From Methanobacteriota archaeon (GTDB lineage: Archaea; Halobacteriota; Syntropharchaeia; Alkanophagales; Methanospirareceae): DNA of 43,373 nt. Under the pieces are notes generated by a model. That model did no database searches. It was not told the origin of the DNA and saw nothing but the letters and a program-made list of their open reading frames with translations. Made by a program: the position numbers and the translations under genes. Below, piece by piece: positions 8,746 through 43,166 of this stretch. The stretch covers positions 1 to 43,373 of the forward strand of contig JAYEJE010000084.1 in the NCBI GenBank assembly GCA_034660415.1, read 5' to 3'. Every line of letters starts with the position of its first letter. The stretch's first letter is position 1.

Positions 8746-9555
8746 TCACCTGTTCCTTCTATGCGCCATATAGGCAACTGCTAAAATGCCTGCAATTGTG
8801 AATACCACCTCAAATCCCGGCTCTTTCGGTGCTGGTGCTGACGCTGACGCTGGTTTTTTAACACCTACAAAAAGTTCCTGGTCAGGTTGCAGTAAAAACT
8901 TATCCCTCGTATCTGCCCATTTCGACTTGAATGTCTTCTTTTCCGCTGCCGTTGCTTCTGCGGGTACACTGAACTTCACCTTTTTCCGTAGTTCGAAGTA
9001 GCCTTCCGGGAACACTCCCTCTTTCACTGCGACCTCGTAACAGTCCCCAGTTGATTTTCGGCAGATGTCGAACCTGAAATTATCTCGAGTATTATCCTTT
9101 GCTATTTTCTTCAAGTTCGATTGGCTCAGGTCCATTACTTCAGTCCCGTCAGGCAGAATTATCTTATACTCGCCTTCCGTTTTCGTTTCTATCCCCGCCC
9201 CTGTCCCCGTAATGTATCGAAAACAATCCTTGGAACCAAGAGTAGCAAGCCTGCTGATTATCTGGATGTCATCTCTTGCGGGTATCTCCTCGCCCCATAT
9301 TTCCGATATTCCTAACTGAGATGCCCTGAATGCACAAGCTCCACATCCACAAATAGCTCCGTGATATTTCCCTACGTCTTCTATTGATATTTCAAGCAGC
9401 GTATCACCATCATAAATTGAAATGGGCGCTAGCTCGTATTCCGGTAGCGGTTTGGCACCTGGCATGTGTGCATCAACGGAAATAATCGCTGTAGATACTG
9501 CAAGCAAAACCAACGACATAACCACAACTGTTTTTATTTTATCTATTCTTTTCAT
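8746..9555 (-). CDS. Surface-anchored protein: signal peptide, recurrent Cys-containing domain X, PGF-CTERM anchor
   Basis: Signal peptide ends VDA-HMPG. Domain X motifs are KYHGAICGCGACAFRAS, IPARDDIQIIS and VFPEGYFELRKK. The C-terminus PGFEVVFTIAGILAVAYMAHRRNR is a canonical PGF-CTERM. Confidence 0.7.
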   Translation of the reverse strand: MKRIDKIKTVVVMSLVLLAVSTAIISVDAHMPGAKPLPEYELAPISIYDGDTLLEISIEDVGKYHGAICGCGACAFRASQLGISEIWGEEIPARDDIQIISRLATLGSKDCFRYITGTGAGIETKTEGEYKIILPDGTEVMDLSQSNLKKIAKDNTRDNFRFDICRKSTGDCYEVAVKEGVFPEGYFELRKKVKFSVPAEATAAEKKTFKSKWADTRDKFLLQPDQELFVGVKKPASASAPAPKEPGFEVVFTIAGILAVAYMAHRRNR

Positions 9556-9565
9556 TTTTTTTTCT

Positions 9566-10780
9566 TTATCTCCTCCTGTATCTCACTATCACAACTGCTA
9601 TAAGCCCTACAATAATTATCACGAATGATACTGCACCGCCAATAGGAGCCACATCCGTTCCTTTACTTTTCACGTTAGAAAGATAGGTCGTCAGGTCGCT
9701 ATGCTTGATTTCTACTGTCTCTCTACCGTCTTTCAGTTTTAACGGCTTCTGCTCTGTAATCACCGTTGCCAGGTCGGTAGAATGGATGTGAACATCACTT
9801 GAAAATCCTTTGAGCTTTTTCATCTCCTCCAGCATCTCACTCCCTTTTTCCTTTACCTCTTCTCTATCATCGGTCTTTTCTATCTCGTCCAGATACCCCC
9901 CGGTCCTGTATATAGAACCCATGAGCTTATGCGACAGGTCATGCAGCATCGCTGCCTCCACTTCGCCCTTACCCATCTCCTCTGCTACTGGCACCATCGC
10001 GCCGTGTATCAACTCATGCATTTCGCCTATGCACACTGATGCCTCCTCCGATTTCTCACGGAGTGCTTCTAATTTCCCTTTATCTCCACTTTCAGTAAGT
10101 TCGGCAGCGAGACAAAGCATAGTGCCTTCATCCCCCACTTTGCCTACGATGAGCGCATCAAGATGGTGGGCATAATTGTCGTGAAGTTCATTCGATAGCC
10201 TCTTTCCTATTGACTCTGTGAGTTTAGGTAAAATCTTGCTTTCCATATCACCAAGCCGGCTTTCTTCATACCACTTCAATGTCTCCCCTCTTGCCTTTTT
10301 GTTCCTTAGCTCAAAGTAGCCTGCCGGGAATATACCCGGGATTTCTTCCTCTGCTTTCCATACGTATTCCTCACCACTCCTCATATTGACAAACGTAAAT
10401 TCAAAGTTCTCTGCTCTCAGGTTCTTCTCACTTGTCCCTGCTGGTGTTTTTATCTCGTATTCACCCGGCTTCGTGCTTATCCATTCCGGTGGTGCATCTC
10501 CCTCCGGCTGACCTATGATAACTTGAATGACCTGCTCAGCAGCCGGAGTTGGCAGTTTACTGATTATGTTTATGTCACTTCGCCGTGGTGCTTCACCTTC
10601 CCACAGGTTATCTATGGCATCACCCGTTGCCCTGTACACAAAATCCGCGGAAAAATCCGTCACCGCCTCTGCTTCTTCTGCTGCTGCTATTTGAACGGGG
10701 AACGCATTTACTAATATCGCCGCTAATAATATTACTACTGCGGTGGCTCTAATTTTTCTCCATTCCTTTTCTTTTTTCAT
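9566..10780 (-). CDS. Surface-anchored protein: Cys-less domain X, His-rich helical region, C-terminal TM anchor (tandem paralog 1)
   Basis: Signal peptide present. LWEGEAPRRSDINIISKL and IFPAGYFELRNKK are domain X motifs. HDNYAHH, MHELIHGAM and HDLSH helices follow. The C-terminal TM segment ends RYRRR. Confidence 0.7.
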   Translation of the reverse strand: MKKEKEWRKIRATAVVILLAAILVNAFPVQIAAAEEAEAVTDFSADFVYRATGDAIDNLWEGEAPRRSDINIISKLPTPAAEQVIQVIIGQPEGDAPPEWISTKPGEYEIKTPAGTSEKNLRAENFEFTFVNMRSGEEYVWKAEEEIPGIFPAGYFELRNKKARGETLKWYEESRLGDMESKILPKLTESIGKRLSNELHDNYAHHLDALIVGKVGDEGTMLCLAAELTESGDKGKLEALREKSEEASVCIGEMHELIHGAMVPVAEEMGKGEVEAAMLHDLSHKLMGSIYRTGGYLDEIEKTDDREEVKEKGSEMLEEMKKLKGFSSDVHIHSTDLATVITEQKPLKLKDGRETVEIKHSDLTTYLSNVKSKGTDVAPIGGAVSFVIIIVGLIAVVIVRYRRR

Positions 10781-10784
10781 ATCT

Positions 10785-12071
10785 TCACTTGCTCCTTTTA
10801 ACTACTATCCCCAGTGCTGCGAGCCCGGCAACGATTATTCCGAAGGCTATGGCACCACCGGTGGGAAATGGCTCTTTTTCTTCCTCTTCCGCCTCACTTA
10901 TCTTCGATAGGTATGTTGTTAGGTCGCTATGTGCGATATTGACTGCTTCAGTACCGTCTTTCAGCTTTAACGGCTTCTGCTCTGTGAGCACCGTTGCTAA
11001 GTCGGTAGAATGGATGTGAACCTCACTTGAAAATTCTTTGAGCTTCTTCATCTCCTCCAGCATCTCACTCCCTTTTTCTTTTACCTCTTCTATATCATCG
11101 GTCTTTTCTATCTCGTCCAGATACCCCCCGGTCCTGTATATAGAACCCATGAGCTTATGCGACAGGTCATGCAGCATCGCTGCCTCCACTTCGCCCTTAC
11201 CCATCTCCTCTGCTACTGGCACCATCGCGCCGTGTATCAACTCATGCATTTCGCCTATGCACACTGATGCCTCCTCCGATTTCTCACGGAGTGCTTCTAA
11301 TTTCCCTTTATCTCCACTTTCAGTAAGTTCGGCAGCGAGACAAAGCATAGTACCTTCATCCCCCACTTTGCCTACGATGAGCGCATCAAGATGGTGGGCA
11401 TAATTGTCGTGAAGTTCATTTGATAACCTCTTCCCTATGGATTCTGTAAGTGCTGACGACACTTTTTCTTCCATTTTCCCAAGCTGACTTTCTTCATACC
11501 ACTTCAGTGTCTCTCCTCTTGCCTTTTTGTTCCTCAGCTCGAAGTAGCCTGCCGGGAATATACCCGAGATTTCTTCCTCGGCTTTCCATACGTATTCCTC
11601 GCCGCTCCTCACGGCAACAAAAGTAAATTCAAAGTTCTCTGCCTTCTGGTTTTCCTCGCTCGTTCCTCCAGGTGCTTTAAGCTCGTATTTGCCCGGCTTA
11701 TCACTTGTCCATTCCGGTGGTGCTTCTCCCTCCGGCTGACCTATGATAACCTGAATGACCCGCTCAGCAGCCGGAGTTGGCAGTTTACTGATTATCTTTA
11801 TGTCACTTCGCCGCGGTGCTTCTCCTTCCCACAGGACATCTATAGCATCGCTTATCGCTCTGTATGCGAAATCCGCAGAAACGTCTATCTCTGCTGCTCC
11901 CCCTCCTGCTCCTGCTGCTCCTTCCACGTATTTCGGGCATTCTTCTATCGGCACCCAGCCTTCTGGTATATGCGCCTGCCCCGGAAACGCGAATGCACTG
12001 AGCAATACCGTTGCCAGTACTATTCCTATTACAGCAGTTTTGAGTTTTCTCCTGCTCTTTTCTCTTTCCAT
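10785..12071 (-). CDS. Surface-anchored protein, tandem paralog 2 of 9566-10780
   Basis: Same architecture as its neighbour. The signal peptide ends GQA-HIPEG. The central and C-terminal region is almost nucleotide-identical to the neighbour. Confidence 0.7.
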   Translation of the reverse strand: MEREKSRRKLKTAVIGIVLATVLLSAFAFPGQAHIPEGWVPIEECPKYVEGAAGAGGGAAEIDVSADFAYRAISDAIDVLWEGEAPRRSDIKIISKLPTPAAERVIQVIIGQPEGEAPPEWTSDKPGKYELKAPGGTSEENQKAENFEFTFVAVRSGEEYVWKAEEEISGIFPAGYFELRNKKARGETLKWYEESQLGKMEEKVSSALTESIGKRLSNELHDNYAHHLDALIVGKVGDEGTMLCLAAELTESGDKGKLEALREKSEEASVCIGEMHELIHGAMVPVAEEMGKGEVEAAMLHDLSHKLMGSIYRTGGYLDEIEKTDDIEEVKEKGSEMLEEMKKLKEFSSEVHIHSTDLATVLTEQKPLKLKDGTEAVNIAHSDLTTYLSKISEAEEEEKEPFPTGGAIAFGIIVAGLAALGIVVKRSK

Positions 12072-12231: not shown

Positions 12232-13482
12232 TTACCTGGTTCTTCTAAGTACTAAGTAGGCAACTGCTGAAATACCTACAATAGCGAAAATAGCTTCGAA
12301 TCCTGGTGGTGTAGGTGTGGGTGTCGATGCTGCTGCTGGCGCCGCTGGTGCTGCTGCTGCTATTGTATATTCAAGGTCTTCTAAATTGAGCCTCATCGCT
12401 TTGCTAGCATCATCGAAAGCATGCAGAGCATTGTGTATGGCATCTGCAGCACTTTTGGCTTCCGGTGATGCTATGACGTCCGGATCCTCTATAAGCACAT
12501 GTACCAACTCATGTGGCGCTTTACCTATAACCGGCAACTCCATTGTAGTTGCAAAGTCAGCTGCATCTATCGTGTCTTGATGCAGTTTTCGCAGTGCTTC
12601 GATTTTTCCCACAGTAACCAAAATTTTTGCTGTGTCCTTCTCAGGTGCGGCTTTGTATGTATCTAGCTTCGCGATATTGTTTTCCATATAAACCCCGATG
12701 TGCGCGAGAGCATGGGAACTCAAATGAACTGTCTCAGCCTTAGCTGCCAGTTCATCCGGTATACCTTCTACACCAAGGATCGCGTCCGTCTGCATGTGTA
12801 TGACCTCGGTGGCGTCTATAAGCTCAGCCATATCTTTGTCAATTCCTTCCACCACCGCGGATATATCTACTATAACTGGTGGCTCTGCTAATGTATATTC
12901 AAGATCTTCCAAATTGAGCCTCATCGCTTTGCTAGCATCATCGAAAGCATGCAGAGCATTGTGTATATCGTCTGCAGCACTTTTGGCTTCCGGTGATGTT
13001 ATGACGTCCGGATCCTCTATAAGCACATGTACCAACTCATGTGGCGCTTTACCTATAACCGGCAACTCCATTGTAGTTGCAAAGTCAGCTGCATCTATCG
13101 TGTCTTGATGCAGTTTTCGCAGTGCTTCGATTTTTCCCACAGTAACCAAAATTTTTGCTGTGTCCTTCTCAGGGTCTGCTTTGTATGTATCTAGCTTCGC
13201 GATATTGTTTTCCATATAAACCCCGATATGCGCGAGAGCATGGGAACTCAGATGAACTGTCTCAGCCTTATCTGCCACTTCTTCCGGTATACCTTCGACA
13301 CCAAGGATCGCGTCCGTCTGCGTGTGTATGACCTCGGTGGCTTCTATAAGCTCAGCCATATCTTTGTCAATTTCTCCCACCACTGCGGATACATCTTGCG
13401 CCATGACTGTCGCAACACTCGTTGTAACAAACAGCATTGCTATTGCTACCGCAACAATTCCTACCATTCGTTTTGTGTACAT
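12232..13482 (-). CDS. Surface-anchored His-rich helical protein: two ~176-aa repeats plus a PGF-CTERM anchor
   Basis: Signal peptide present. Each repeat carries HALAH, HELVH and HNALH (HxxxH) motifs. The C-terminus is PPGFEAIFAIVGISAVAYLVLRRTR. The ATG at 13482 lies 8-9 nt after GGAGGTGA. The ORF-track GTG at 13494 sits inside that SD sequence. Confidence 0.7.
   Translation of the reverse strand: MYTKRMVGIVAVAIAMLFVTTSVATVMAQDVSAVVGEIDKDMAELIEATEVIHTQTDAILGVEGIPEEVADKAETVHLSSHALAHIGVYMENNIAKLDTYKADPEKDTAKILVTVGKIEALRKLHQDTIDAADFATTMELPVIGKAPHELVHVLIEDPDVITSPEAKSAADDIHNALHAFDDASKAMRLNLEDLEYTLAEPPVIVDISAVVEGIDKDMAELIDATEVIHMQTDAILGVEGIPDELAAKAETVHLSSHALAHIGVYMENNIAKLDTYKAAPEKDTAKILVTVGKIEALRKLHQDTIDAADFATTMELPVIGKAPHELVHVLIEDPDVIASPEAKSAADAIHNALHAFDDASKAMRLNLEDLEYTIAAAAPAAPAAASTPTPTPPGFEAIFAIVGISAVAYLVLRRTR
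12340..13395. repeat. Internal tandem duplication, 2 x 528 bp, about 95 percent identical at protein level
   Basis: Residues ~34-209 and ~210-385 align almost residue for residue. The shadow ORFs at 12700 and 13228 are offset by exactly 528 bp. Confidence 0.85.
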
Positions 13483-13562
13483 CTTTTTTTTCACCTCCTA
13501 ATAATTTTGTTTTATTTACCTCTTTTTTAGTTGAGGATATTCATTCTGTATCTCTTTCTTAT

Positions 13563-14081
13563 TCAAATATCCCTCTCCTTTTTAGTTGAGGACATTAATT
13601 CCTTATCACCAATTGTGGATTTTACTTCTTCTTTTTCTTTACTCCAGCTCCTGATAAAAAAAATCATCACCAAAGAGAAAGGAAGTAACCAGGTTGCCGT
13701 GGGATAAGGAGGCGCATAATATTTCAAAAACCCATAAAGGGTGTAGGTCCATGACCCCTGTCCAGATAATGACCCGCAAATCATTTTTAGTATGTCGCAT
13801 CCAGCAAGTATCCACAACATTATCACGCCTATAAGTGAAGTTCCAAAACCTTCGGGGTCCGAAAAGCGAAATGCTCCCCACATTATTAGCAGCCCGGCAA
13901 AGAAGGTAACTATCCCCCTCCACAGGCACATCCAGTCCATTGATTCAGGAAAAAGTTTAAACCATTCCGTAGCCCATAGTTCTGTTATGCCAAGTGACGA
14001 AGCAAGCTCCCAGCAGCCAAACCACAGCGTCACTGCTCCCAATACCGCAAAATACACCGAGCCCCATTTCCAGTTGTCCAT
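13563..14081 (-). CDS. Trp-rich small membrane protein of unknown function, directly downstream of the FeoB permease
   Basis: 172 aa with about four hydrophobic segments. It starts 10 nt after the FeoB membrane gene ends. Confidence 0.5.
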   Translation of the reverse strand: MDNWKWGSVYFAVLGAVTLWFGCWELASSLGITELWATEWFKLFPESMDWMCLWRGIVTFFAGLLIMWGAFRFSDPEGFGTSLIGVIMLWILAGCDILKMICGSLSGQGSWTYTLYGFLKYYAPPYPTATWLLPFSLVMIFFIRSWSKEKEEVKSTIGDKELMSSTKKERDI

Positions 14082-15321: not shown

Positions 15322-15420
15322 TACTTAACTCAGCTCACCCGCCATAATTGCTTATTCAATAGACTTATAAATCCTAAATTCAAAATCCGAAATCCTAAAC
15401 AAAACCAAATTTTCCACTCT

Positions 15421-35062: not shown

Positions 35063-35070
35063 AATGTACT

Positions 35071-37022: not shown

Positions 37023-37030
37023 TTTTTAGT

Positions 37031-38101
37031 TCACCAGTATCCCCCCCTCCCTCTCAATATCAGGTAAATGAAGAGTGGAACGCCCAGATATGCGGTCATT
37101 ATACCCACAGGTAGAATAACCGGTGCCATGATTGTCCTTGCCGCAGTGTCTGCGGCGACAAGTAATATCGCTCCAACTAGACCAGATGTCGGAATCAGAA
37201 ATCTATTATCGCCGCCTATAACCATGCGACATATATGTGGGGCGACCAAACCAACGAATCCGATTGTGCCGGTGAAGCATACGATACCGGCAACTAAGAG
37301 TGATGCAAGCACCATCGTAATGATTCTAGTGCGCTCTACCTGGACACCCAAGCTTTTAGCTGTTTCGTCTCCTGCACCCAGCACGTTAAGATCCCACGAT
37401 TTCAGTATAAGCAAAGGAACACAGCATACTAGTACGACAGATACGAGTGACAGCTTTGACCATGAGGCCCTTCCAAGGGAGCCGACCATCCAGAATATCG
37501 CTCCTTTCACCGCTTCCGCTTCGGCAAAATATTGTAGCGTCATTGTCATCGCAGTGAAGAGATACATCATTGCAATGCCTGCCAGGATCATGCTCTCGGG
37601 TGTCGCACCCCTACGACTTGAAAGACCGAGGATAATGAACGAAACCACTAATGCGAAGGCGAATGCATTTCCTATTACCAGATATTGCCCACCGACGAAG
37701 CCGGCACCGGCAAGTATGCCAAGAGAAGCGCCAAATCCTGCGCCTGATGCAATACCAAGCGTATAAGGACTCGCAAGCGGATTTCTCAGCACTCCCTGCA
37801 TCACACATCCTGCAACACCGAGTCCAAAGCCCGCAGCAACGCCCATTAAGATTCGAGGCAGTCTCAACTTCCATACGCATATCTCGGCAAGTCTGCTCGA
37901 CTCGAAGTAGTTGGGTAAGAACCGATGAAGAAATGCGGAATACGCATCCCAGATCGATACATTTGCCGAACCGAGAGATGCCGCTAAGCCCGCGAGAATA
38001 AATAGTAGTGGGATGAGGATAAGAATAAAGGTTACTTTCCTGCCGATGAACTTCTGATATTGTTCCTTTATCGTACTACTCTTCCCCGGTACTGTTGCCA
38101 T
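37031..38101 (-). CDS. FecCD-family permease (BtuC/HmuU-like)
   Basis: 356-aa polytopic protein with RLPRILMGVAAGFGLGVAGCVMQGVLRNPLASPYTLGI, which is typical of FecCD. Confidence 0.8.
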   Translation of the reverse strand: MATVPGKSSTIKEQYQKFIGRKVTFILILIPLLFILAGLAASLGSANVSIWDAYSAFLHRFLPNYFESSRLAEICVWKLRLPRILMGVAAGFGLGVAGCVMQGVLRNPLASPYTLGIASGAGFGASLGILAGAGFVGGQYLVIGNAFAFALVVSFIILGLSSRRGATPESMILAGIAMMYLFTAMTMTLQYFAEAEAVKGAIFWMVGSLGRASWSKLSLVSVVLVCCVPLLILKSWDLNVLGAGDETAKSLGVQVERTRIITMVLASLLVAGIVCFTGTIGFVGLVAPHICRMVIGGDNRFLIPTSGLVGAILLVAADTAARTIMAPVILPVGIMTAYLGVPLFIYLILRGRGGYW

Positions 38102-38140
38102 TATCTCTTCTACCCAAAAATCTTTATCTAAAAAGTAAAA

Positions 38141-38232
38141 GTATTAGGTTAACAAAAAACATGCTCTAAAAATACTCGGTTTTGGATAAAAACTGAATAT
38201 AGTTAGGTTTTTGAGAAAAAGCCGATGATTTG
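38141..38232 (-). promoter_or_regulatory. Shared promoter/operator cassette, copy J (upstream of the ABC importer)
   Basis: TTAGG at 38144 and TCTAA at 38165 (offset 21), followed by CTCGGTTTTGGATAAAAACTGAAT, AGTTAGGTTTTT and AGCCGATGATTT. Confidence 0.65.
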
Positions 38233-38309: not shown

Positions 38310-38648
38310 TCACTCCCCCAATCGCTCACACAGAAATATCTTAACAAAATCTATCAGCCCGTAAGCCTCCGTAACGACTTTCAAACCGTGTTCTCGCAGC
38401 AACTCCTCAAGGTTTCGTTTCGCAAAATCTCGGTAATAGTTGCTCTCATAACGTGATGTAAATGACACGTGCAGCCATCTATGCAATTTGTTCTTCTTCT
38501 TAGCCACCCACAACATTTCTTCTGACAACTCAATCCCCATGACTTCATAACCCCTTTTCGCAAATGCAAACGCCTGTGTCCGGATTCTAGTGCAGACATC
38601 CAGAATTTTTATTTCGTCTCCTTTGTCAATCAGATCTGCAAAATAATG
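38310..38648 (-). pseudogene. Decayed class I SAM methyltransferase: no usable start, degenerate SAM motif, apparent internal loss
   Basis: The stop-to-stop frame reads HYFADLIDKGDEIKILDVCTRIRTQAFAFAKRGYEVMGIELSEEML... CTRIRT replaces the GxGxG loop. The first Met lies 36 codons into the frame. Confidence 0.5.
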
Positions 38649-38695
38649 TCACCTAAAAATGTTCGATTTTTAATAAAAACCGAAAGATATTGGAA
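38641..38695 (-). promoter_or_regulatory. Truncated cassette copy L, lacking the promoter-proximal TTAGG
   Basis: CACCTAAAAATGTTCGATTTTTAATAAAAACCGAAAGATATTGG aligns with the central part of the other copies. Confidence 0.45.
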
Positions 38696-38699
38696 CTAC

Positions 38700-39209
38700 C
38701 TATACAAATCTACCATCTGACCTCTTTTTATTTACATTGCGTGATTTCCCGGTAAGCCACCCTATTCGCTTTGCCATTCGAGAATCAAAATCAGGAACGT
38801 AGGGCTTTATATCTAACAGAGGACTCCCACCTAAAATGTCTACATCCTGAATATGGAGTATGCACCCTTCAACTTTGACACAACGCACCACAGAGATACC
38901 GATGGGATTAGGTCGCCCAGGGATTCTTGTGGCAAATACTCCATGCGTATTCTTATCCAGATATGGTGTGACCTCCAATGAATATGAATAGCCATCAGAT
39001 AGATGAAAATGATAAATCAGAATAATATGCGAAAAACCTTCAATGTCCTTGAGACCCGCACAGTATTTCGGGAATACCTCTACGGTTCCTGCAACTCCTT
39101 CGGCACCTGTTGGTTGTATGGGCATCCCTTTAGGATTCTTGAAAGGCGAGTGAATAATTCCTATTGGTTTGTACACAATTTCATTCATTTTTGTCATTTT
39201 TCTCTTCAA
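38700..39209 (-). CDS. trmO: TsaA/TrmO-like (YaeB family) SAM-dependent methyltransferase
   Basis: PIGIIHSPF, FSHIILIYHFH, GVFATRIPGRPNPIG and LLDIKPYVPDFD are hallmark YaeB/TrmO motifs. Confidence 0.7.
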   Translation of the reverse strand: MKRKMTKMNEIVYKPIGIIHSPFKNPKGMPIQPTGAEGVAGTVEVFPKYCAGLKDIEGFSHIILIYHFHLSDGYSYSLEVTPYLDKNTHGVFATRIPGRPNPIGISVVRCVKVEGCILHIQDVDILGGSPLLDIKPYVPDFDSRMAKRIGWLTGKSRNVNKKRSDGRFV

Positions 39210-40114
39210 TCCCTCTTAAACCTGTATACTTCACCGCGTTGCTCAATCAACGTGAATAAATTTCCCTTTGCAAAGAGGTCCATAAAATCTTTCTGGTTGA
39301 GATGTTCCGCGGTAGCAAAGAGAAATCCATCTGATTTCAATACCCGATGTAGTTCCTCCAACAATTTCACCTTATCACTTATCATCTGAAACACATCGTA
39401 TAATAAAACAACATCTACACTCCCATCGGGCAATCCTGTTTCTTGTGCTGAGAGAATCGTTTTGATGTTAGCGATTCTTTTCTTTTTGATTTCTTTCTCA
39501 ACTGCCCTTATAGCCAGAGGATGAATATCTAAAGCATAAACAATGCCATCATCGCCAACCAGTTTTGCCGCCGGGATACTGAAACTCCCTATTCCACATC
39601 CGTAATCCAAAATAGTTTGTCCTTTCTTGAGTTCCATCTCACGTAAGGTTCTTTCTGGCTTTTTAAATATGCTTCGCATGGTTAAAACCGTCTTCATTAT
39701 TGCAAAGCCAATGCGGGGCATCTTCTGCTTATCCATTCCACGTTTGAATATCAAACCCCGGAACATCAAAATAGCCACGATGAATTGAGAAACTGCAATG
39801 CATTCAAATATCATAAATATTGCCATTTTCTCCGTCAGAAACATTCTGAGCCCTAAATGGTGAATCATAACAATTGGGGTAAGCGGAATGATAATTAGCG
39901 GTGCCGTAGCAGCCAGCCAGTGCCATACTGACTTCTCCGCACCCGCATATTCCTTGAGCGCGAGAATGCCTATACTGATCGTTATAACTCCTGCGATTAG
40001 CCCGTATACCACTCCACGCGGGTAAACAAGACCATTTATATACCAAATTACTTTGACTGTAGGATATAATAAACCCAGTAAGATATAGAGGGCATACTTT
40101 TTAATTATTCTCAT
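39206..40114 (-). CDS. Membrane-anchored class I SAM methyltransferase (about four TM segments plus an MTase domain)
   Basis: The N-terminal half is hydrophobic. ILDYGCGIGSF (motif I) and VYALDIHP follow, and the 3' end overlaps the trmO-like gene by 4 nt. Confidence 0.65.
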   Translation of the reverse strand: MRIIKKYALYILLGLLYPTVKVIWYINGLVYPRGVVYGLIAGVITISIGILALKEYAGAEKSVWHWLAATAPLIIIPLTPIVMIHHLGLRMFLTEKMAIFMIFECIAVSQFIVAILMFRGLIFKRGMDKQKMPRIGFAIMKTVLTMRSIFKKPERTLREMELKKGQTILDYGCGIGSFSIPAAKLVGDDGIVYALDIHPLAIRAVEKEIKKKRIANIKTILSAQETGLPDGSVDVVLLYDVFQMISDKVKLLEELHRVLKSDGFLFATAEHLNQKDFMDLFAKGNLFTLIEQRGEVYRFKRD

Positions 40115-40296
40115 TTTGTTTGTTTATTTTTGTACTTATTCATTATGTATTTCGTGCTTTTAACCCCAGAAACGTATATTCAATAAATAAACGGTATCAC
40201 TTTTTGTTTTCCTCCCTCAGTAATCCTCACACCCCTTTCAGAACTCTTCATGAAGCAGCTTCTCTTCTAAACATGCTCAGTCCTCTATATGTTGTA

Positions 40297-40692
40297 ATTC
40301 CACAGCTACCCCGCACTTGGTTCCAGTGTCGGGAGAACGAGTACGTGCATGCTGACGCATATCGCAATAATTATCAGAATAACCTTGACGATAAAATACG
40401 GAACCACGACAACGGCTGAATATCCTATCGTCAGGCTTAAAAACGCAATCATCAGAATCTTGGTCTTCATCGGAATCCCCTTTCCCTCGTGCCAGTTTTT
40501 TATATATTCTCCAAACCAGCGGTTTGTGATGAGCCAGCGGTACCATCTCTCCGAGCTTCGGGCGTAGCAGCCGAGAGCGAGCAGGAGAAAGGGCGTGGTA
40601 GGCAGGATCGGCAGAACTATCCCCACGCATCCAATTATCAGGAATAACGTGCCCACGATTCGCAATAGCAACCCTGCCGCTGTGTTTGATCG
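40297..40692. repeat. ~395-bp direct repeat, copy 2
   Basis: See 30660-31055. Confidence 0.8.
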
Positions 40693-40806
40693 TTTATGTC
40701 CTGTCCCCTCCCTTTCATTGGTATAACCCGGCTGCGTTGCATCTCCGTACCGCTCGTTTATCAATTCCCCTTTTCTATCGGTTCCTACAAAATCAGAGAA
40801 CGCCAT
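40306..40806 (-). CDS. Chimeric YbaN/DUF454 paralog whose first ~30 codons and SD region copy the 5' end of the PAN-like AAA gene
   Basis: MAFSDFVGTDRKGELINERYGDATQPGYTNE compares with MATANFVGTDRKEELLDELYEEEKRPGYTDE. At nucleotide level 40720-40822 matches 33045-33146. The rest is collinear with 30669-31064. Confidence 0.6.
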   Translation of the reverse strand: MAFSDFVGTDRKGELINERYGDATQPGYTNEREGTGHKRSNTAAGLLLRIVGTLFLIIGCVGIVLPILPTTPFLLLALGCYARSSERWYRWLITNRWFGEYIKNWHEGKGIPMKTKILMIAFLSLTIGYSAVVVVPYFIVKVILIIIAICVSMHVLVLPTLEPSAG

Positions 40807-40832
40807 GTAAAGACACTCCTCCTATTAACGTC

Positions 40833-41225
40833 CTATTCAACGTTTTGCGTATAGCTAACATTCTTTTTACCCGTTAAGCACACGGCTTTTGTGTCATTCC
40901 CGATTAGTTCTGTTTCTTCAACCGCAAAACCTGCCTCATTTATCATTGCCGCAAGCTCGTCTTGGCTGAAACTATTATTATTTGACGGTAGTTTACCGAA
41001 TTTTTTTAGATAACGAATCACCAGTTTCATCTTTTTTAACAGGCTCATCCCATGTCCTGTAACATCAACGATTACAATCTGTCCATCGCTGCTTAGAACT
41101 CTGTGGCTTTCCTTTAGCACTGCAATTGGGCACTCTACAATGTGGGGCAGGTTCACCAGTAAAAGTGCATCGCCATGAAACGTCCTGGCAAGTTTACCCC
41201 AATATTCATGTTCACTTCCTGACAT
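40833..41225 (-). CDS. Truncated class I methyltransferase, C-terminal half only; possibly a pseudogene
   Basis: DALLLVNLPHIVECPIAVLKESHRVLSSDGQIVIVD matches post-motif-II MTase regions. There is no SAM-binding loop. Cassette K lies 70 bp upstream. Confidence 0.45.
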   Translation of the reverse strand: MSGSEHEYWGKLARTFHGDALLLVNLPHIVECPIAVLKESHRVLSSDGQIVIVDVTGHGMSLLKKMKLVIRYLKKFGKLPSNNNSFSQDELAAMINEAGFAVEETELIGNDTKAVCLTGKKNVSYTQNVE

Positions 41226-41289
41226 TTTTATCTCATTCTCCGTTCTAATAGGCCGTGGTAAAGACGTTAATCCTATTATTATAGTCTGA

Positions 41290-41375
41290 TGTTGTTAGGT
41301 ACATAAATAATAACCCCTAAAAAGATTTGGATTTAGCTAAAAAACCTAATAAAGTTAGGCTTTGATAATAAAAAC
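41290..41375 (-). promoter_or_regulatory. Shared promoter/operator cassette, copy K
   Basis: TTAGG 41295, CCTAA 41316, TTTGG 41326, CCTAA 41345 and TTAGG 41355, giving offsets 0/21/31/50/60. Confidence 0.7.
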
Positions 41376-42052: not shown

Positions 42053-42053
42053 T

Positions 42054-42719
42054 TTATATCTTCATAAAATAAACAAGTATGCCCAAAATAATTAATACTA
42101 TTCCTGTGACAATTTTATCATGACGCTCTAAGAAACGCCACTCTATTTTCGCCACTCCTTTCAGACCCAAATTCACCATCAAAACCATGCCGAGAACTGT
42201 CACACCTACATATATGACGAGAACAGAGGATATACCAATCCAACCAAATGTTCCAGCGGTGAAACAATAAGCTCCAATTCCAACACAAGGTGAAAGAAAT
42301 AATGCGATGCCCAAAGAAGAAATTAATGCCAATTTCGGCTTTTTTGACGCTCCTTCTGTTTCTATTATTGGAGAGTGATGCTGACTGGGGTCCTCAAATT
42401 TAAACTTAAGTTTAAAATCGAGAAATAGATAAATGACACCCAAAACAACCAGAATCATGGGTGCGGAAAATCTCATTATTAGTTCATAAGTGGAAGAGAG
42501 TTTGTAGCCAATTAGACCAAGAAGAACACCAACTGAGATAGTGCTGATTATGTGTGGAATAGCAACGAGAGCAGTAGCTCCTAAGGTCTCTCCGTGCGTC
42601 CAATTCTCAGCTTTGCTGACTACGACGATAGGAATCCAGTGATTTGGCATCGGGGCATGAGCTACCGACAGAACCAATGCACCAAATAGAACATGCATCA
42701 ACTGCAAATTCATATCCAT
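42054..42719 (-). CDS. Polytopic membrane protein, a possible NicO/RcnA-like metal transporter
   Basis: HAPMPNHW in TM1 resembles the HAxxPGH-type motif. There is a central loop with HH and acidic residues. Weak assignment. Confidence 0.35.
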   Translation of the reverse strand: MDMNLQLMHVLFGALVLSVAHAPMPNHWIPIVVVSKAENWTHGETLGATALVAIPHIISTISVGVLLGLIGYKLSSTYELIMRFSAPMILVVLGVIYLFLDFKLKFKFEDPSQHHSPIIETEGASKKPKLALISSLGIALFLSPCVGIGAYCFTAGTFGWIGISSVLVIYVGVTVLGMVLMVNLGLKGVAKIEWRFLERHDKIVTGIVLIILGILVYFMKI

Positions 42720-42740
42720 ACTTATATTCTCTTTTCCTCC

Positions 42741-43166
42741 TCAAAAAAGTTGCTCGTTTAGCTGTTGCAGAATCTTCGTGAAAGTTACAATTTCATCCTC
42801 GCTTAGCAAAGACATCAACTCCTCGGTTAAATGCTGATGATGCTTGTGGTGATCTTCAAAGGCTTTCTTACCCGCGGGCGTAAGCTCTATTATATACGCT
42901 CTTCGATCTTCTTTCGTCGTCCCTCGTTTCGCATACCCTTTCTTCTCCAATCTATCCACCGTTACCGTGATGGTTCCGGTAGTGACCCCAAGCTTCTCCG
43001 CCAGCATCTTCATCTTCATTTCACCATGAGCACCCAGGATTTCAATGGCGTGGGTTTCTGAAAGCGTGAGGTCACTGGATCGTATTACCGAAGTTTCCCA
43101 GGAAGAGAACCGGTTAAAGAAGTTAATCATCTCATTCGTTAGTCGTTCCACATCGCCACCGCTCAT
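42741..43166 (-). CDS. MarR-family regulator with a His cluster, possibly an AdcR/ZitR-like metal sensor
   Basis: The MarR wHTH is LAEKLGVTTGTITVTVDRLEKKGYAKR. EDHHKHHQHL sits in the C-terminal helix, and ETHAIEIL in helix 2 is where AdcR places its metal ligands. Confidence 0.65.
   Translation of the reverse strand: MSGGDVERLTNEMINFFNRFSSWETSVIRSSDLTLSETHAIEILGAHGEMKMKMLAEKLGVTTGTITVTVDRLEKKGYAKRGTTKEDRRAYIIELTPAGKKAFEDHHKHHQHLTEELMSLLSEDEIVTFTKILQQLNEQLF

What the first reader, a model, noticed from the sequence alone, without database searches (positions are those of the whole stretch)
8746..43166. System-level call: a ~34-kb co-regulated metal/tetrapyrrole capture island built largely from uncharacterised surface and cytoplasmic parts
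Seen directly: one promoter/operator cassette precedes at least 11 transcription units, and a core-only copy precedes flavodoxin. Those units are:
- Feo locus 1, with four surface-anchored proteins downstream;
- Feo locus 2, with a cytoplasmic domain X protein;
- a sensor-less kinase;
- a secreted double-CbiX fusion;
- a secreted ZinT-like protein;
- an FAD oxidoreductase plus a DUF1641-like partner;
- a FeoC-like protein;
- a PAN-like AAA ATPase;
- a Cys-rich peptide plus a HemN-like radical SAM enzyme;
- a FecCD/FepC importer that has no binding-protein gene;
- a truncated methyltransferase.

A DtxR-family regulator sits in the middle of the island. Established knowledge: Feo, flavodoxin, ZinT, DtxR and FecCD-type importers are classic metal-starvation genes.

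Inference: the unknown components belong to one undescribed archaeal pathway. These are domain X, the HxxxH helical surface proteins, the triple FeoA proteins, the secreted chelatase fusion and the AAA ATPase. The pathway would capture metal or metallated tetrapyrroles at the cell surface and hand iron to Feo or the ABC importer.
Basis: partly seen in the sequence, partly recalled or inferred. Interest (0 to 1): 0.85.

Follow-up and report, generated by a model that had tools for sequence, protein, structure and literature searches.

The report
ANME-1 iron-starvation regulon gene cluster
A methane-oxidising archaeon (ANME-1) keeps about 33 kb of metal-uptake genes behind 13 copies of one conserved promoter/operator, most likely an iron-starvation regulon under a DtxR-type repressor, which marks several uncharacterised surface and cytoplasmic proteins as candidate iron-acquisition parts.

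Summary
A 70-100 nt cassette occurs 12 times on the minus strand (17.2-41.4 kb), and a core-only copy faces flavodoxin. A 40-nt pattern matches 11 times, against 0 expected. Each copy sits just upstream of a gene or operon.

The same cassette precedes the same gene families in 59 loci, almost all labelled ANME-1/Methanophagales, so the window is very probably ANME-1. The cassette holds two 23-bp dyads (AAAnCCKAA-N5-TTMGGnTTT) 29 bp apart and a CCTAAC half-site, placed around TATA-like elements. A two-domain DtxR/MntR-family gene lies beside a cassette in 16 of those loci.

Best reading: an iron-responsive DtxR-type repressor regulon. That is a known kind of system, but undescribed for ANME-1.

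- "Domain X" is a divergent, mostly secreted FmdE-fold domain, often fused to CbiX/CbiK/ferrochelatase and conserved next to Feo.
- The HxxxH proteins are an orphan helical family found mainly in ANME-1. One homologue sits beside CbiMNQO.
- The radical SAM enzyme is closest to the ChuW/HutW heme-degrading model but below its cutoff.
- "FeoC-like" has no sequence support.

The idea of one surface tetrapyrrole-capture pathway remains plausible but unproven.

The parts
17214..17317 (-). Cassette copy c17k, upstream of Feo locus 1
   Evidence: E 3.9e-19
16497..17207 (-). Triple-FeoA protein (236 aa), first gene of Feo locus 1
   Evidence: Pfam FeoA x3. Orthologues follow the cassette in 16 or more loci
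15955..16478 (-). Two single-domain FeoA genes (16188-16478 and 15955-16191)
14092..15951 (-). Split FeoB: GTPase (15421-15951) and membrane part (14092-15321)
   Evidence: FeoB_N; Gate + FeoB_C
13563..14081 (-). 172-aa multi-pass membrane protein, conserved directly after FeoB
   Evidence: No Pfam family. Conserved position in at least 11 loci
12232..13494 (-). HxxxH helical surface protein: signal peptide, two helical repeats, PGF-CTERM
   Evidence: 6 conserved His per repeat; no PDB relative
9566..12071 (-). Two paralogous surface proteins (10785-12071 and 9566-10780): signal peptide, degenerate domain X lacking CxC, His-rich helical domain, C-terminal TM anchor
   Evidence: synteny
8746..9555 (-). 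Surface protein: signal peptide, full domain X (FmdE-like), PGF-CTERM
   Evidence: conserved after Feo
22579..22682 (-). Cassette copy c22k, upstream of Feo locus 2
21068..22577 (-). Two triple-FeoA genes (21870-22577 and 21068-21787)
18505..21064 (-). FeoA, FeoA, FeoB GTPase (19872-20564) and FeoB membrane part (18505-19854)
18051..18527 (-). Small membrane protein. Its 85%-identical counterpart in a related contig carries a precomputed PF27307 (MJ0565) hit
17395..18012 (-). Cytoplasmic domain X protein (205 aa), FmdE fold
   Evidence: Pfam FmdE 27.3 bits. AF2 model pLDDT 89. Foldseek top hits 2glz, 2gvi, 3d00
23379..23482 (-). Cassette copy c23k
22721..23359 (-). Histidine kinase core without a sensor domain (HisKA_2 + HATPase_c)
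   Evidence: Not found in the other loci
26114..26216 (-). Cassette copy c26k
23906..25954 (-). Secreted fusion: signal peptide, unknown N-terminal domain, two CbiX domains, C-terminal domain X
   Evidence: Cassette-preceded orthologues in 5 loci
28384..28487 (-). Cassette copy c28k
27119..28228 (-). Secreted ZinT-like protein with an extra C-terminal domain
   Evidence: Pfam ZinT 48 bits
26444..26908 (-). DtxR/MntR-family regulator (two domains, no SH3 domain), downstream of ZinT in the same cassette-driven unit
30521..30621 (-). Cassette copy c30k
28926..30525 (-). SQR-like FAD oxidoreductase (29323-30525) and DUF1641 protein (28926-29297)
31682..31786 (-). Cassette copy c31k
30669..31629 (-). 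97-aa Cys-rich protein ('FeoC-like', family unsupported; 31336-31629) and DUF454 membrane protein (30669-31064)
   Evidence: Cassette-preceded in 4 loci and found at the end of Feo-1 loci
33143..33246 (-). Cassette copy c33k
31833..33131 (-). PAN-like AAA ATPase (432 aa from the ATG). Its C-terminus ...MDEERE has no Tyr at the penultimate position
   Evidence: Cassette-preceded in 6 loci
35060..35162 (-). Cassette copy c35k
34889..35062 (-). Cys-rich 57-aa ORF
34632..34829 (-). Remnant of the N-terminus of an MFS transporter (pseudogene)
33329..34618 (-). HemN-like (class C type) radical SAM enzyme, closest to the ChuW/HutW model
35179..35257 (+). Core-only cassette copy facing flavodoxin
   Evidence: (E 2e-4)
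35297..36187 (+). Flavodoxin (35297-35740) and DUF2023 protein (35798-36187)
   Evidence: Divergent pairing with the radical SAM unit is conserved
38121..38224 (-). Cassette copy c38.1k
36240..38101 (-). FecCD permease (37031-38101) and ABC ATPase (36240-37022); no binding-protein gene
38622..38710 (-). Weaker cassette copy c38.6k, upstream of a 76-aa methyltransferase fragment (38310-38540)
   Evidence: (E 1.6e-10)
41272..41372 (-). Cassette copy c41k
38700..41225 (-). Truncated methyltransferase (40833-41225), chimeric DUF454 (40306-40806), SAM methyltransferase (39206-40114), TrmO_N-domain protein (38700-39209)

Best explanation
The region is the clustered iron-starvation regulon of an ANME-1 (Methanophagales) archaeon.

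Each transcription unit carries the same composite promoter. It contains two copies of a 23-bp dyad, AAAnCC(T/G)AA-N5-TT(A/C)GGnTTT, with centres 29 bp apart, and a CCTAAC half-site about 31 bp further downstream. These elements flank and overlap the TATA-like elements and the expected transcription start.

When iron is sufficient, the metal-loaded two-domain DtxR/MntR-family repressor (26444-26908) would bind these sites on one face of the DNA. That would block TBP/TFB or RNA polymerase. The repressor gene lies inside a cassette-driven unit, so it would also regulate itself. When iron is scarce, all units are derepressed together.

The derepressed modules are several, not one linear pathway:
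- two Feo Fe(II) importers with multiple FeoA domains and small membrane partners;
- surface-anchored or secreted metal-binding proteins (FmdE-like domain X, His-rich helical proteins, ZinT);
- a secreted CbiX-CbiX-FmdE fusion that could bind or demetallate metal-tetrapyrroles;
- a FecCD-type ABC importer;
- a ChuW/HutW-proximal radical SAM enzyme, with a divergently transcribed flavodoxin that could serve as its reductant and as a ferredoxin substitute;
- accessory proteins (PAN-like AAA ATPase, SQR-like flavoprotein, kinase core).

Shown: the cis element, its placement, its conservation, the gene families, and the linkage to the regulator gene. Inferred: repression, iron as the signal, and all biochemical roles of the uncharacterised proteins.
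For: The cassette is real and non-random.
- 11 pattern matches against 0 expected.
- 13 nhmmer hits in the window.

The cassette is conserved, not just recently duplicated.
- The exact 40-nt pattern occurs in 59 genome loci, nearly all ANME-1/Methanophagales MAGs, plus Syntrophoarchaeum and Methanolliviera bins.
- 118 profile hits show invariant positions interleaved with free positions.
- The same positions are conserved in 35 hits that were not selected by the search pattern.

The same genes follow the cassette elsewhere.
- Triple FeoA 16 loci, FeoA 12, AAA 6, CbiX fusion 5, 'FeoC-like' 4, flavodoxin 4, ZinT 3, FecCD 2.
- In some bins also FecB-type binding proteins, MFS transporters and NosD-like proteins.

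The regulator is linked to the cassette.
- A DtxR orthologue lies next to a cassette in 16 loci, and inside a cassette-driven unit in the window, L038, L061 and L045.
- Every orthologue resolved at these positions has ligands D8 E11 H77 C99 E102 H103.
- Its closest solved relative is B. subtilis MntR, E 5.5e-25.

The operator resembles known DtxR-family sites.
- The half-site pentamer CCTAA/TTAGG also occurs in the motif of the Haloferax volcanii DtxR-family repressor TroR, TTTAGGC-N3-CCTAAAA.
- That motif likewise occurs in tandem about 30 bp apart and mediates iron-dependent repression (PMC10783522).

Iron is the likely signal.
- Feo and flavodoxin are classic iron-limitation genes.
- DtxR/FeoAB co-response has been reported in a methanogen (PMC8516115).

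The unknown proteins fit a metal-handling role.
- FmdE fold of domain X.
- FmdE genes are mostly adjacent to metal transporters, and the domain binds Zn through FHGHxC (PMC2954224).
- Of 100 domain X relatives, 25 carry CbiX, 4 ferrochelatase, 3 CbiK, 2 ZinT and 1 a Shr heme-binding domain.
- The radical SAM enzyme scores best on the ChuW/HutW model.
Against: - There are no expression data, transcription start sites or binding data. Repression, the regulator's identity and the metal signal are all inferred.
- The dyad has the pentamers in the order CCTAA-N5-TTAGG. This is the reverse of the arrangement in IdeR and TroR boxes.
- The regulator is closest to Mn-sensing MntR, and it keeps the MntR-type D8.
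- The regulon contains ZinT, which responds to Zn in bacteria. Zn, Co or Ni control is therefore not excluded.
- Another DNA-binding protein in the regulon, such as the 97-aa Cys-rich protein, could be the direct regulator.
- Which of the two T-rich elements is the TATA box is unknown.
- Some 'Methanolliviera' and 'Nitrosotalea' loci may be mis-binned ANME-1 contigs. L058 is 98% identical to the window. The true taxonomic breadth is therefore uncertain.
Confidence: 0.65

Rival explanations
1. The uncharacterised parts form one dedicated pathway. Surface-anchored domain X and HxxxH proteins and the secreted CbiX-CbiX-FmdE fusion capture metals or metallated tetrapyrroles (heme, possibly F430 or corrinoids) outside the cell. 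They strip or pass on the metal and deliver Fe(II) to Feo or the ABC importer. Imported tetrapyrrole is opened in the cytoplasm by the ChuW-like radical SAM enzyme.
For: - Domain X is recurrently fused to class II chelatase domains and once to a Shr heme-binding domain, in secreted proteins.
- Domain X and HxxxH genes directly follow Feo genes in many loci.
- The first CbiX half keeps both conserved His motifs (GHGS and SGH).
- The radical SAM enzyme scores best on the ChuW/HutW model, and flavodoxin is divergently paired with it.
- ChuW uses reduced flavodoxin as its electron donor (PMC10114669).
- Bacterial precedents: the P. gingivalis surface CbiK-like IhtB is a putative dechelatase encoded with an ABC importer (PMC12094164). 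In B. fragilis, heme is dechelated in the periplasm and FeoAB is needed to take up the released iron (PMC6460266).
Against: - No biochemical evidence exists.
- The radical SAM enzyme scores 216 bits against a cutoff of 400, and its nearest non-ANME relatives are also below the cutoff.
- An HxxxH homologue is attached to CbiMNQO without a cassette.
- The modules occur independently in other genomes.
- In relatives, the radical SAM unit carries a Cys-rich peptide and an MFS gene, which suggests a different role.
Confidence: 0.18
2. The cassette is a shared regulated promoter, but the controlling factor or signal is different. Candidates are Zn, Co, Ni or Mn limitation, sulfide or redox state, or a regulator other than the DtxR homologue. 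Examples of such regulators are the 97-aa Cys-rich helix-turn-helix-like protein or a response regulator partnered with the kinase core.
For: - The regulator is closest to MntR.
- ZinT and FmdE-type domains bind Zn in characterised relatives (PMC2954224).
- The pentamer order in the dyad differs from that in IdeR and TroR boxes (PMC10783522).
- A kinase core and a small Cys-rich protein are themselves cassette-driven.
Against: - The gene most often found behind the cassette is FeoA/Feo.
- Flavodoxin is a member.
- The DtxR gene is the only regulator consistently adjacent to cassettes across genomes (16 loci). The kinase was not found in any other locus.
- C99 replaces the MntR carboxylate E99 at the position of DtxR C102. 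By recollection of Guedon & Helmann 2003, this position is tied to Fe versus Mn selectivity.
Confidence: 0.14
3. The cassette is only a strong constitutive promoter, or a repeat spread by recent duplication or mobile-element activity, with no regulatory meaning.
For: The island shows recombination relics. DUF454 is duplicated at about 91% DNA identity. One DUF454 copy has a chimeric 5' end taken from an AAA gene. There are gene fragments, and the CbiX and ZinT units share a leader and signal peptide.
Against: - The element is conserved position by position across genomes whose orthologous proteins are only 50-80% identical, with free positions in between.
- It carries clear dyad symmetry.
- It is restricted to one functional class of genes and absent from the housekeeping genes in the window.
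Confidence: 0.03

Closest known systems
DtxR-family iron regulons of archaea (Haloferax volcanii TroR; Halobacterium Idr/SirR; DtxR/FeoAB in methanogens)
   Same: - A DtxR-family repressor gene is linked to iron-uptake genes.
- The motif is semi-palindromic and built from TTAGG/CCTAA pentamers.
- Sites occur in tandem about 30 bp apart near the TATA box.
- Feo and iron transporters are targets (PMC10783522, PMC5737653, PMC8516115).
   Different: - The pentamer order within the dyad is reversed (CCTAA-N5-TTAGG).
- The whole promoter of about 70 nt is conserved as a unit.
- The ligand set is a hybrid (D8 with C99).
- Most of the regulon is clustered in one region of about 33 kb.
- The targets include FmdE-like, HxxxH, triple-FeoA, PAN-like and HemN-like proteins. 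I found these reported in no such regulon. No paper in the library holds the terms ANME-1, FeoB and iron together.
FmdE family (PF02663; PDB 2glz, 2gvi, 3d00)
   Same: - Same fold (Foldseek probability 1.0, E 5e-6 to 4e-3).
- The Pfam hit is above the gathering score.
- A His/Cys motif sits at the position of FHGHxC.
- Genes are linked to metal transporters, and a TrmO_N (PF01980) gene is nearby. FmdE-PF01980 fusions are known (PMC2954224).
   Different: - Domain X is a small divergent subfamily: 225 clusters at 50% identity among 1.84 billion proteins.
- Most members start the domain at about residue 40-50, consistent with a signal peptide.
- The motif is H...CxC rather than FHGHxC.
- There is no zinc-finger C-terminal domain.
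- Fusions are to CbiX/CbiK/ferrochelatase, ZinT, NosD and cell-surface anchors.
Extracytoplasmic dechelatase-type heme-iron acquisition in anaerobic bacteria (P. gingivalis IhtB/FetB with IhtCDE; B. fragilis periplasmic dechelation with FeoAB; HmuS)
   Same: A class II chelatase homologue is placed outside the cytoplasm, encoded with iron ABC-transporter or Feo genes and linked to iron limitation (PMC12094164, PMC6460266, PMC12583661).
   Different: - The organism is an archaeon without an outer membrane.
- The chelatase is of the CbiX type, duplicated and fused to an FmdE-like domain.
- No activity is known. This is a resemblance in how it might work, not a membership.
ChuW/HutW/HmuW anaerobic heme-degrading radical SAM methyltransferases
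   Same: - HemN-like architecture with the CxxxCxxC motif.
- ChuW/HutW is the best-scoring NCBIfam model.
- Expression is linked to iron limitation.
- A flavodoxin gene is adjacent (PMC10114669, PMC10404700).
   Different: - The score is 216 bits against a cutoff of 400.
- There are no ChuX/ChuY/HutZ-type partners.
- In relatives the operon contains a Cys-rich peptide and an MFS gene.
Feo systems (FeoA/FeoB/FeoC)
   Same: FeoA SH3-like domains, the FeoB GTPase and the Gate/FeoB_C membrane domain are all present.
   Different: - FeoB is split into two genes.
- There are five FeoA domains per operon, including a three-domain protein as the first gene.
- No recognisable FeoC is present.
- Conserved extra small membrane proteins follow: an MJ0565-like protein and a 172-aa orphan.

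Membership tests
DtxR/MntR family metalloregulator (protein 26444-26908) | N-terminal winged-helix DNA-binding domain (PF01325) | tested here: met
   E 6.5e-22, 77.9 bits against a cutoff of 26
DtxR/MntR family metalloregulator (protein 26444-26908) | Metal-binding/dimerisation domain (PF02742) with conserved ligand positions | tested here: met
   E 1.7e-15. Aligned to B. subtilis MntR: D8, E11, H77, C99 (MntR has E99), E102, H103. The same set is seen in every adjacent orthologue resolved at these positions
DtxR/MntR family metalloregulator (protein 26444-26908) | Metal-dependent binding to a palindromic operator | not testable with these tools
   Only a dyad-symmetric conserved element and gene adjacency are available
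DtxR-type iron regulon | A shared palindromic site overlapping the core promoters of iron-uptake genes | tested here: met
   Two dyads plus a half-site around TATA-like elements in 13 units. The transcription start is not mapped
DtxR-type iron regulon | Derepression under iron limitation | not testable with these tools
   No expression data
FmdE (PF02663), for domain X | Profile match above the gathering score | tested here: met
   27.3 bits against 22.9 for 17395-18012, partial match. 50 of 100 family relatives match, best E 7e-27
FmdE (PF02663), for domain X | Alpha+beta core fold of 2glz/2gvi/3d00 | tested here: met
   AF2 pLDDT 89.4. Foldseek top four hits are the three FmdE entries, TM 0.45-0.62
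FmdE (PF02663), for domain X | FHGHxC metal-binding motif plus a distal Cys | tested here: inconclusive
   The sequences show H(G)...CxC at the equivalent place in three of five window copies. It is absent from 9566-10780 and 10785-12071. Model coordinates could not be inspected
Class II chelatase CbiX | CbiX domain(s) with conserved His residues | tested here: met
   Two CbiX stretches. The first half has GHGS and SGH; the second half has AHGT but lacks the second His
Class II chelatase CbiX | Metal insertion into, or removal from, a tetrapyrrole | not testable with these tools
   Needs a biochemical assay
ChuW/HutW heme-degrading radical SAM methyltransferase (TIGR04107) | Score above the curated equivalog cutoff | tested here: not met
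   216.5 bits against 400. It is nonetheless the best model, ahead of STM4012 (184), HemW (159) and HemN (130). The nearest non-ANME relatives score 162-260 bits
ChuW/HutW heme-degrading radical SAM methyltransferase (TIGR04107) | Radical SAM CxxxCxxC motif | tested here: met
   CAGRCTFC in the translation. PF04055 E 3.5e-21
Proteasome-activating nucleotidase (PAN) | Full-length match above the subfamily cutoff | tested here: not met
   251.9 bits against 500. It aligns end to end with PAN 6he5
Proteasome-activating nucleotidase (PAN) | C-terminal HbYX docking motif | tested here: not met
   The C-terminus ...NTMDEERE has no Tyr at the penultimate position. The motif definition is from my own knowledge
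FeoC | Sequence similarity to FeoC (PF09012) | tested here: not met
   No Pfam hit even at E up to 5. No BLAST alignment to the E. coli FeoC sequence as I recalled it. Only a Cx4Cx2Cx5C pattern, and a position next to Feo genes in other loci
Feo transporter | FeoA, the FeoB G-domain and the FeoB membrane domain | tested here: met
FecCD-type (type II) ABC importer | Permease, ATPase and a cognate substrate-binding protein | tested here: inconclusive
   Permease 310 bits and ATPase present. No binding-protein gene in this operon or in its close orthologous loci. One may be encoded elsewhere
PGF-CTERM archaeosortase substrates | C-terminal PGF motif, TM helix and basic tail | tested here: met
   PF18204 at 29 and 28 bits against 18.8, for 8746-9555 and 12232-13494

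The most novel reading that the evidence does not exclude
ANME-1 archaea switch on an extracellular metal-tetrapyrrole salvage route when starved of iron.
- A secreted CbiX-CbiX-FmdE enzyme strips iron, or nickel or cobalt, from environmental heme, F430 or corrinoids at the cell surface.
- PGF-CTERM-anchored FmdE-like proteins and six-His helical proteins relay the metal to split Feo transporters gated by multi-domain FeoA proteins.
- A ChuW-like radical SAM enzyme, powered by flavodoxin, opens imported porphyrins.

This would be the first archaeal heme-iron acquisition system and would assign a function to the FmdE fold.
Probability: 0.15. Interest if true: 0.85.

Novelty: new variant of a known kind. 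Interest (0 to 1): 0.6.

Why it matters
ANME-1 archaea are uncultured and consume much of the methane rising from marine sediments. They need large amounts of iron, nickel and cobalt while living in sulfidic settings where these metals are scarce. How they obtain the metals is essentially unknown.

- **A regulon marker.** A promoter/operator signature conserved across the order lets the iron-starvation regulon be read directly from metagenomes.
- **A tool for field studies.** The signature gives metatranscriptomic studies a defined marker set for iron limitation in methane seeps.
- **Candidate new components.** It singles out several protein families with no known function as candidate metal-acquisition parts:
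  - secreted FmdE-like domains fused to chelatases;
  - a six-His helical family found mainly in ANME-1;
  - triple-FeoA proteins;
  - small FeoB-adjacent membrane proteins;
  - a PAN-like ATPase lacking the usual C-terminal docking motif.
- **A long-standing question.** The FmdE fold has lacked a function since 2006-2010. This context makes a role in metal handling, or as a partner of chelatases, testable.

Tried and rejected
- **RNA element in the leaders.** The CbiX and ZinT units have leaders of about 175 nt. An alignment of five leaders gives no consensus structure (-0.12 kcal/mol, 4 pairs). Rfam finds only tRNA-Met in the window. Rejected.
- **FeoC identity of the 97-aa protein.** No Pfam or BLAST support.
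- **Sequence search of domain X against the PDB.** Nothing significant. Only the fold search worked.
- **Fold search of the HxxxH model.** Only generic helical bundles, E at least 0.014 and TM below 0.2. No family could be assigned.
- **Bacterial-type promoter/terminator scan.** Counts were at or below chance, as expected for an archaeon. Not used.
- **Leyn & Rodionov 2015** (comparative genomics of archaeal DtxR regulons) **and Zhu et al. 2013** (P. furiosus DtxR). Neither could be read. I could not compare the dyad with their predicted motifs.
- **Metagenome scan for domain X.** Only 17 mostly short loci, all resembling ANME-1 contexts. No neighbourhoods from bacteria were obtained.
- **ChuW membership.** Tested through the nearest non-ANME relatives, which are also below the cutoff. 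The call remains 'closest to', not 'member of'.
- **Horizontally acquired island.** GC content is uniform across the window, 0.40-0.48, and synteny is conserved within the order. The left flank does carry an IS66 fragment, a tRNA gene and a toxin-antitoxin pair. Not pursued.

Full report
**1. The observation**

The window is about 43% G+C, and nearly all genes between 8.7 and 43.2 kb are on the minus strand.

The repeat finder reports a repeat family with 11-12 copies of 47-101 nt (D1/D3). Aligned on the minus strand, the 12 copies share 66% mean column identity and 23 invariant columns over about 90 nt.

A 40-nt degenerate pattern taken from that alignment matches 11 times at up to 3 mismatches. 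All matches are on the minus strand, and none occurred in 100 dinucleotide-preserving shuffles.

A profile HMM of the cassette finds the 12 minus-strand copies (E 5e-22 to 1.6e-10). It also finds a 13th, weaker copy on the plus strand at 35179-35257 (E 2e-4). This copy keeps only the downstream core, TTAGGG-N5-TTATTTATGTCCCTAAC, and lies 40 nt before the flavodoxin start codon.

Every copy ends 18-182 nt upstream of the first start codon of a gene or operon.

**2. Gene content**

*Feo locus 1 (cassette at 17.2 kb)*
- Triple FeoA, two FeoA genes, the FeoB GTPase and the FeoB membrane part as separate genes.
- A 172-aa orphan membrane protein.
- Four surface proteins:
  - 12232-13494 has a signal peptide, two helical repeats and PGF-CTERM.
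  - 10785-12071 and 9566-10780 each have a signal peptide, a degenerate domain X, a His-rich helical domain and a C-terminal TM anchor.
  - 8746-9555 has a signal peptide, a full domain X and PGF-CTERM.

*Feo locus 2 (cassette at 22.6 kb)*
- Two triple-FeoA genes, two FeoA genes and a split FeoB.
- A small membrane protein. Its 85%-identical counterpart in a related contig carries a precomputed PF27307 (MJ0565) hit.
- The cytoplasmic domain X protein.

*Further units*
- A 212-aa HisKA_2 + HATPase_c kinase core.
- A 682-aa secreted protein with two CbiX domains and a C-terminal domain X.
- ZinT followed by the DtxR-family gene.
- An SQR-like flavoprotein plus DUF1641.
- A 97-aa Cys-rich protein plus DUF454.
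- A PAN-like AAA ATPase.
- A 57-aa Cys-rich ORF, an MFS remnant and a HemN-like radical SAM enzyme.
- Flavodoxin plus DUF2023, transcribed divergently.
- FecCD plus an ABC ATPase, with no binding-protein gene.
- A methyltransferase fragment.
- A unit with a truncated methyltransferase, DUF454, a SAM methyltransferase and a TrmO_N protein.

*Corrections*
- The 'FeoC-like' label has no sequence support.
- The GDT1-membrane-MarR genes at 41.5-43.2 kb have no cassette in the window.

**3. Source organism and conservation**

The exact 40-nt pattern occurs in 59 stretches of the genome collection. Almost all are ANME-1/Methanophagales MAGs. A few are labelled Syntrophoarchaeum, Methanolliviera, 'Methanosarcinales archaeon' or, once, Nitrosotalea.

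The closest loci encode proteins 90-99% identical to those of the window. The window is therefore very probably from an ANME-1 archaeon. Some odd taxonomic labels may be binning errors: the 'Methanolliviera' locus L058 is 98% identical to the window.

With the profile, 118 cassette instances were collected from the window plus the 62 loci then in hand. The first ORF after each non-window cassette was compared with the window proteins. The counts were:
- triple FeoA 16;
- single FeoA 12;
- AAA 6;
- CbiX fusion 5;
- the 97-aa Cys-rich protein 4;
- flavodoxin 4;
- ZinT 3;
- FecCD 2;
- radical SAM 1;
- domain X 1.

Genes absent from the window also follow the cassette in some bins. These are FecB-type binding proteins, MFS transporters, NosD/beta-helix giants, a DUF2325 protein, an ExbB-like protein and a nitroreductase-like protein.

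Synteny is conserved.
- The order [cassette]-tripleFeoA-FeoA-FeoA-FeoB_N-FeoB_membrane-172aa protein, often followed by a PGF-CTERM domain X protein and the 97-aa protein, recurs in at least 11 loci. Protein identities run from 35% to 94%.
- The divergent pair 'radical SAM <- cassette/cassette -> flavodoxin-DUF2023' recurs in four loci.

**4. Anatomy of the cassette**

The position-by-position profile reads:

AAAnCCTAA-CTTTn-TTAGGnTTT ... AAAACCGAA-CnTTT-TTAGGG ... TWTTTRTGTnCCTAAC

- The first two blocks are 23-bp dyads with half-site CC(T/G)AA and a 5-nt spacer. Their centres are 29 bp apart.
- The third block is a half-site about 31 bp further on. All three would therefore lie on one face of the helix.
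- Highly conserved positions alternate with free positions, as expected for protein-binding sites and not for recent duplicates.
- The 35 instances that were not selected by the search pattern show the same conserved positions.

Two T-rich elements could be the TATA box.
- TTTTTAGG lies inside dyad 2 and is preceded by a BRE-like CCGAA.
- TTTATATG/TATTTATG lies between dyad 2 and the half-site. It is identical to the TATA-like element upstream of the tRNA-Met gene in the same window.

With either choice, the conserved sites overlap or bracket the core promoter. That is the usual geometry for archaeal repressors.

No conserved RNA structure or Rfam family accounts for the conservation.

**5. 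The regulator**

Protein 26444-26908 has both DtxR-family domains and no SH3 domain. Its closest solved relative is B. subtilis MntR, E 5.5e-25.

Read from that alignment, the ligand positions are D8, E11, H77, C99, E102 and H103. This is the MntR set, except that Cys replaces E99. That position corresponds to C102 of DtxR, a residue tied to Fe versus Mn selectivity (my recollection of Guedon & Helmann 2003, which is cited in PMC8516115).

A DtxR orthologue lies next to a cassette in 16 other loci. Every one resolved at these positions keeps the same residues.

In the window, L038 and L061 the gene follows ZinT inside a cassette-driven unit. In L045 it follows the 97-aa protein. In L064/L065 it lies immediately upstream of a cassette. 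This is consistent with autoregulation.

The TTAGG/CCTAA pentamer and the roughly 30-bp tandem spacing recall the motif shown by ChIP-seq and reporter assays for Haloferax volcanii TroR, TTTAGGC-N3-CCTAAAA (PMC10783522). Within the dyad, however, the pentamer order here is reversed.

I could not read the comparative-genomics paper on archaeal DtxR regulons.

**6. Domain X**

*Copies in the window*
- Five window proteins share this domain of about 180 aa.
- Three carry an H...CxC motif.
- The two paralogues 9566-10780 and 10785-12071 lack it.

*Fold*
- The cytoplasmic copy gives a weak but above-threshold FmdE Pfam hit.
- Its AF2 model is confident, pLDDT 89.4.
- The top four Foldseek hits in the PDB are the three FmdE-family entries 2glz, 2gvi and 3d00, at probability 1.0.

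*Size and architecture of the family*
- An exhaustive profile search finds only 225 clusters among 1.84 billion representatives. Most place the domain after about 40-50 residues, consistent with a signal peptide.
- Of 100 members scanned, 50 match FmdE, 25 carry CbiX, 4 ferrochelatase, 3 CbiK, 5 SLH, 4 Cu_amine_oxidN1, 2 NosD, 2 ZinT and 1 a Shr-like heme-binding domain.

*What is published about FmdE*
- The structural paper reports a Zn site formed by FHGHxC plus a distal Cys.
- It reports that most family genes neighbour metal-ion transporters.
- It reports fusions to PF01980 (PMC2954224). A PF01980 (TrmO_N) protein is in the cassette-driven unit at 38.7 kb.

*Neighbourhoods*
- In ANME-1 genome loci and metagenome contigs, domain X genes sit beside Feo genes down to about 40% identity.

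Domain X is therefore not a new fold. It is a distinct, mostly extracellular FmdE subfamily that partners with class II chelatases and Feo.

**7. HxxxH proteins**

- The 420-aa protein has 59 detectable homologues. Nearly all named ones are from ANME-1/Methanophagales, with a few weaker hits labelled Altiarchaeota or Methanosarcinaceae. All are annotated as hypothetical or PGF-CTERM proteins.
- Each of its two repeats keeps six conserved His residues, including two HxxxH pairs.
- The AF2 model is confident and all-helical. It has no significant PDB neighbour.
- A 47%-identical homologue keeps the same place after Feo, followed by two proteins of about 400 aa (L064/L065).
- A 63%-identical homologue sits directly upstream of CbiM-x-CbiQ-CbiO with no cassette (L063).

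This fits a surface divalent-metal-binding accessory that serves different importers. It does not fit a step in a single iron pathway.

**8. Other members**

*Radical SAM enzyme*
- It has the CxxxCxxC motif.
- It scores best on the ChuW/HutW anaerobic heme-degradation model, at 216 bits. It is ahead of STM4012 (184), HemW (159) and HemN (130), but well below the cutoff of 400.
- Its orthologues at 58% identity or more that carry a taxon label are nearly all from ANME-1. The next relatives, about 30% identical and partly from Lachnospiraceae, score 162-260 bits on the same model.
- ChuW takes electrons from reduced flavodoxin (PMC10114669). A flavodoxin-superfamily protein accompanies HmuW in Fusobacterium (PMC10404700). 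The conserved divergent flavodoxin is suggestive in that light.

*A competing clue for the radical SAM unit*
- In more distant loci the unit reads cassette, then a 36-aa peptide (MSCECECDGRCKECRCKNRS...), then an intact MFS gene with faint EntS-type hits (MFS_3). In L014 the radical SAM gene follows.
- That layout would also fit a modified-peptide metallophore.
- In the window the MFS gene is only a remnant.

*AAA ATPase*
- It aligns end to end with PAN, but at half the cutoff score.
- Its C-terminus has no HbYX-type ending.

*CbiX fusion*
- Its first half keeps both conserved His motifs. The second half lacks one.

**9. Explanation and rivals**

The best-supported reading is a DtxR-type, iron-responsive repressor regulon. 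Its units are derepressed together and encode several uptake, scavenging and iron-sparing modules (confidence 0.65).

It has real but indirect support and good bacterial precedents:
- IhtB/FetB (PMC12094164);
- periplasmic dechelation followed by FeoAB uptake (PMC6460266);
- HmuS (PMC12583661).

I give it about 0.18 as stated.

A different signal or regulator gets about 0.14. A non-regulatory repeat gets about 0.03.

**10. Novelty and interest**

DtxR-family control of Feo and iron genes in archaea is established. The kind of system is therefore known.

What appears to be new:
- the ANME-1 regulon itself; no paper in the library holds the terms ANME-1, FeoB and iron together;
- the unusually rigid composite promoter, conserved across the order;
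- the set of uncharacterised families it ties to iron.

I rate it a new variant of a known kind, with interest 0.6. It still merits attention, because the finding makes metal acquisition in an important uncultured lineage directly testable.

Noticed in passing
window 30669-31064 and 40306-40806; 40685-40836 versus 33010-33161: The two DUF454 genes are DNA copies about 91% identical. The first ~35 codons and the ribosome-binding site of the second copy derive from the 5' end of an AAA gene like 31833-33131, but the cassette in front of it has decayed. The repeated cassettes seem to drive recombination within the island.
   Followed up: partly
window 34632-34829 (-); 28571-28834, 38310-38540 and 40833-41225 (-): Gene relics lie inside cassette-driven units. 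One is the N-terminal remnant of an MFS transporter that is intact in relatives. The other three look like methyltransferase fragments: 38310-38540 lies beside a methyltransferase match in L014, 40833-41225 has a weak Methyltransf_23 hit, and 28571-28834 has no family hit.
   Followed up: partly
window 34889-35062 (-); L010 537-647, L014 2616-2726: The Cys-rich peptide family (36-aa form MSCECECDGRCKECRCKNRS...) is followed in relatives by an MFS gene with faint EntS-type hits, and in L014 by the radical SAM gene. This could be a peptide metallophore or RiPP-like cassette rather than heme degradation.
   Followed up: partly
L063 10001-14325: A 63%-identical HxxxH PGF-CTERM homologue sits directly upstream of CbiM, a 158-aa ORF, CbiQ and CbiO (an ECF-type Co/Ni transporter). 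No cassette is present there. The same contig has a stand-alone cassette-driven triple-FeoA gene.
   Followed up: partly
alignment A3 consensus; window 8746-9555 and 10785-12071: Secreted domain X proteins have a conserved 'AHxP' directly after the signal peptide. The mature proteins would then start with His, a common metal ligand.
   Followed up: no
window 25955-26136 and 28229-28406 (-): The CbiX-fusion and ZinT units share a leader of about 175 nt, a strong GGAGGTGA ribosome-binding site and similar signal peptides. No conserved RNA structure was found.
   Followed up: yes
window 26444-26908 (-), C-terminal tail: The DtxR homologue has a C-terminal extension with CETGMHPC. This is a possible extra metal site absent from MntR.
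   Followed up: no
window 1-8429: The left flank carries an IS66 transposase fragment, an asparagine-synthase/diphthamide-synthase-like fusion (711 aa), tRNA-Met, an AbiEi/AbiEii toxin-antitoxin pair and a secreted M14 carboxypeptidase with a cohesin domain. None has a cassette.
   Followed up: partly
window 41495-43166 (-): A GDT1-family cation transporter, a 221-aa orphan membrane protein and a MarR regulator lie next to the island without a cassette. A GDT1 gene is also adjacent to cassettes in L007, L013, L025, L064 and L068. This may be a metal-efflux counterpart.
   Followed up: no
L024 93-1325, L026, L060, L064 4839-6152: In other ANME-1 genomes, a cassette-driven protein of about 410-440 aa with a coiled-coil region and a C-terminal DUF2325 domain lies between DtxR and the Feo operon. 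It is absent from this window.
   Followed up: no
L001 6558-11318; L034, L043, L052: In relatives, giant secreted NosD/beta-helix proteins follow the cassette. In L001 such a protein also carries CbiX-FmdE-CbiX domains (1586 aa).
   Followed up: partly
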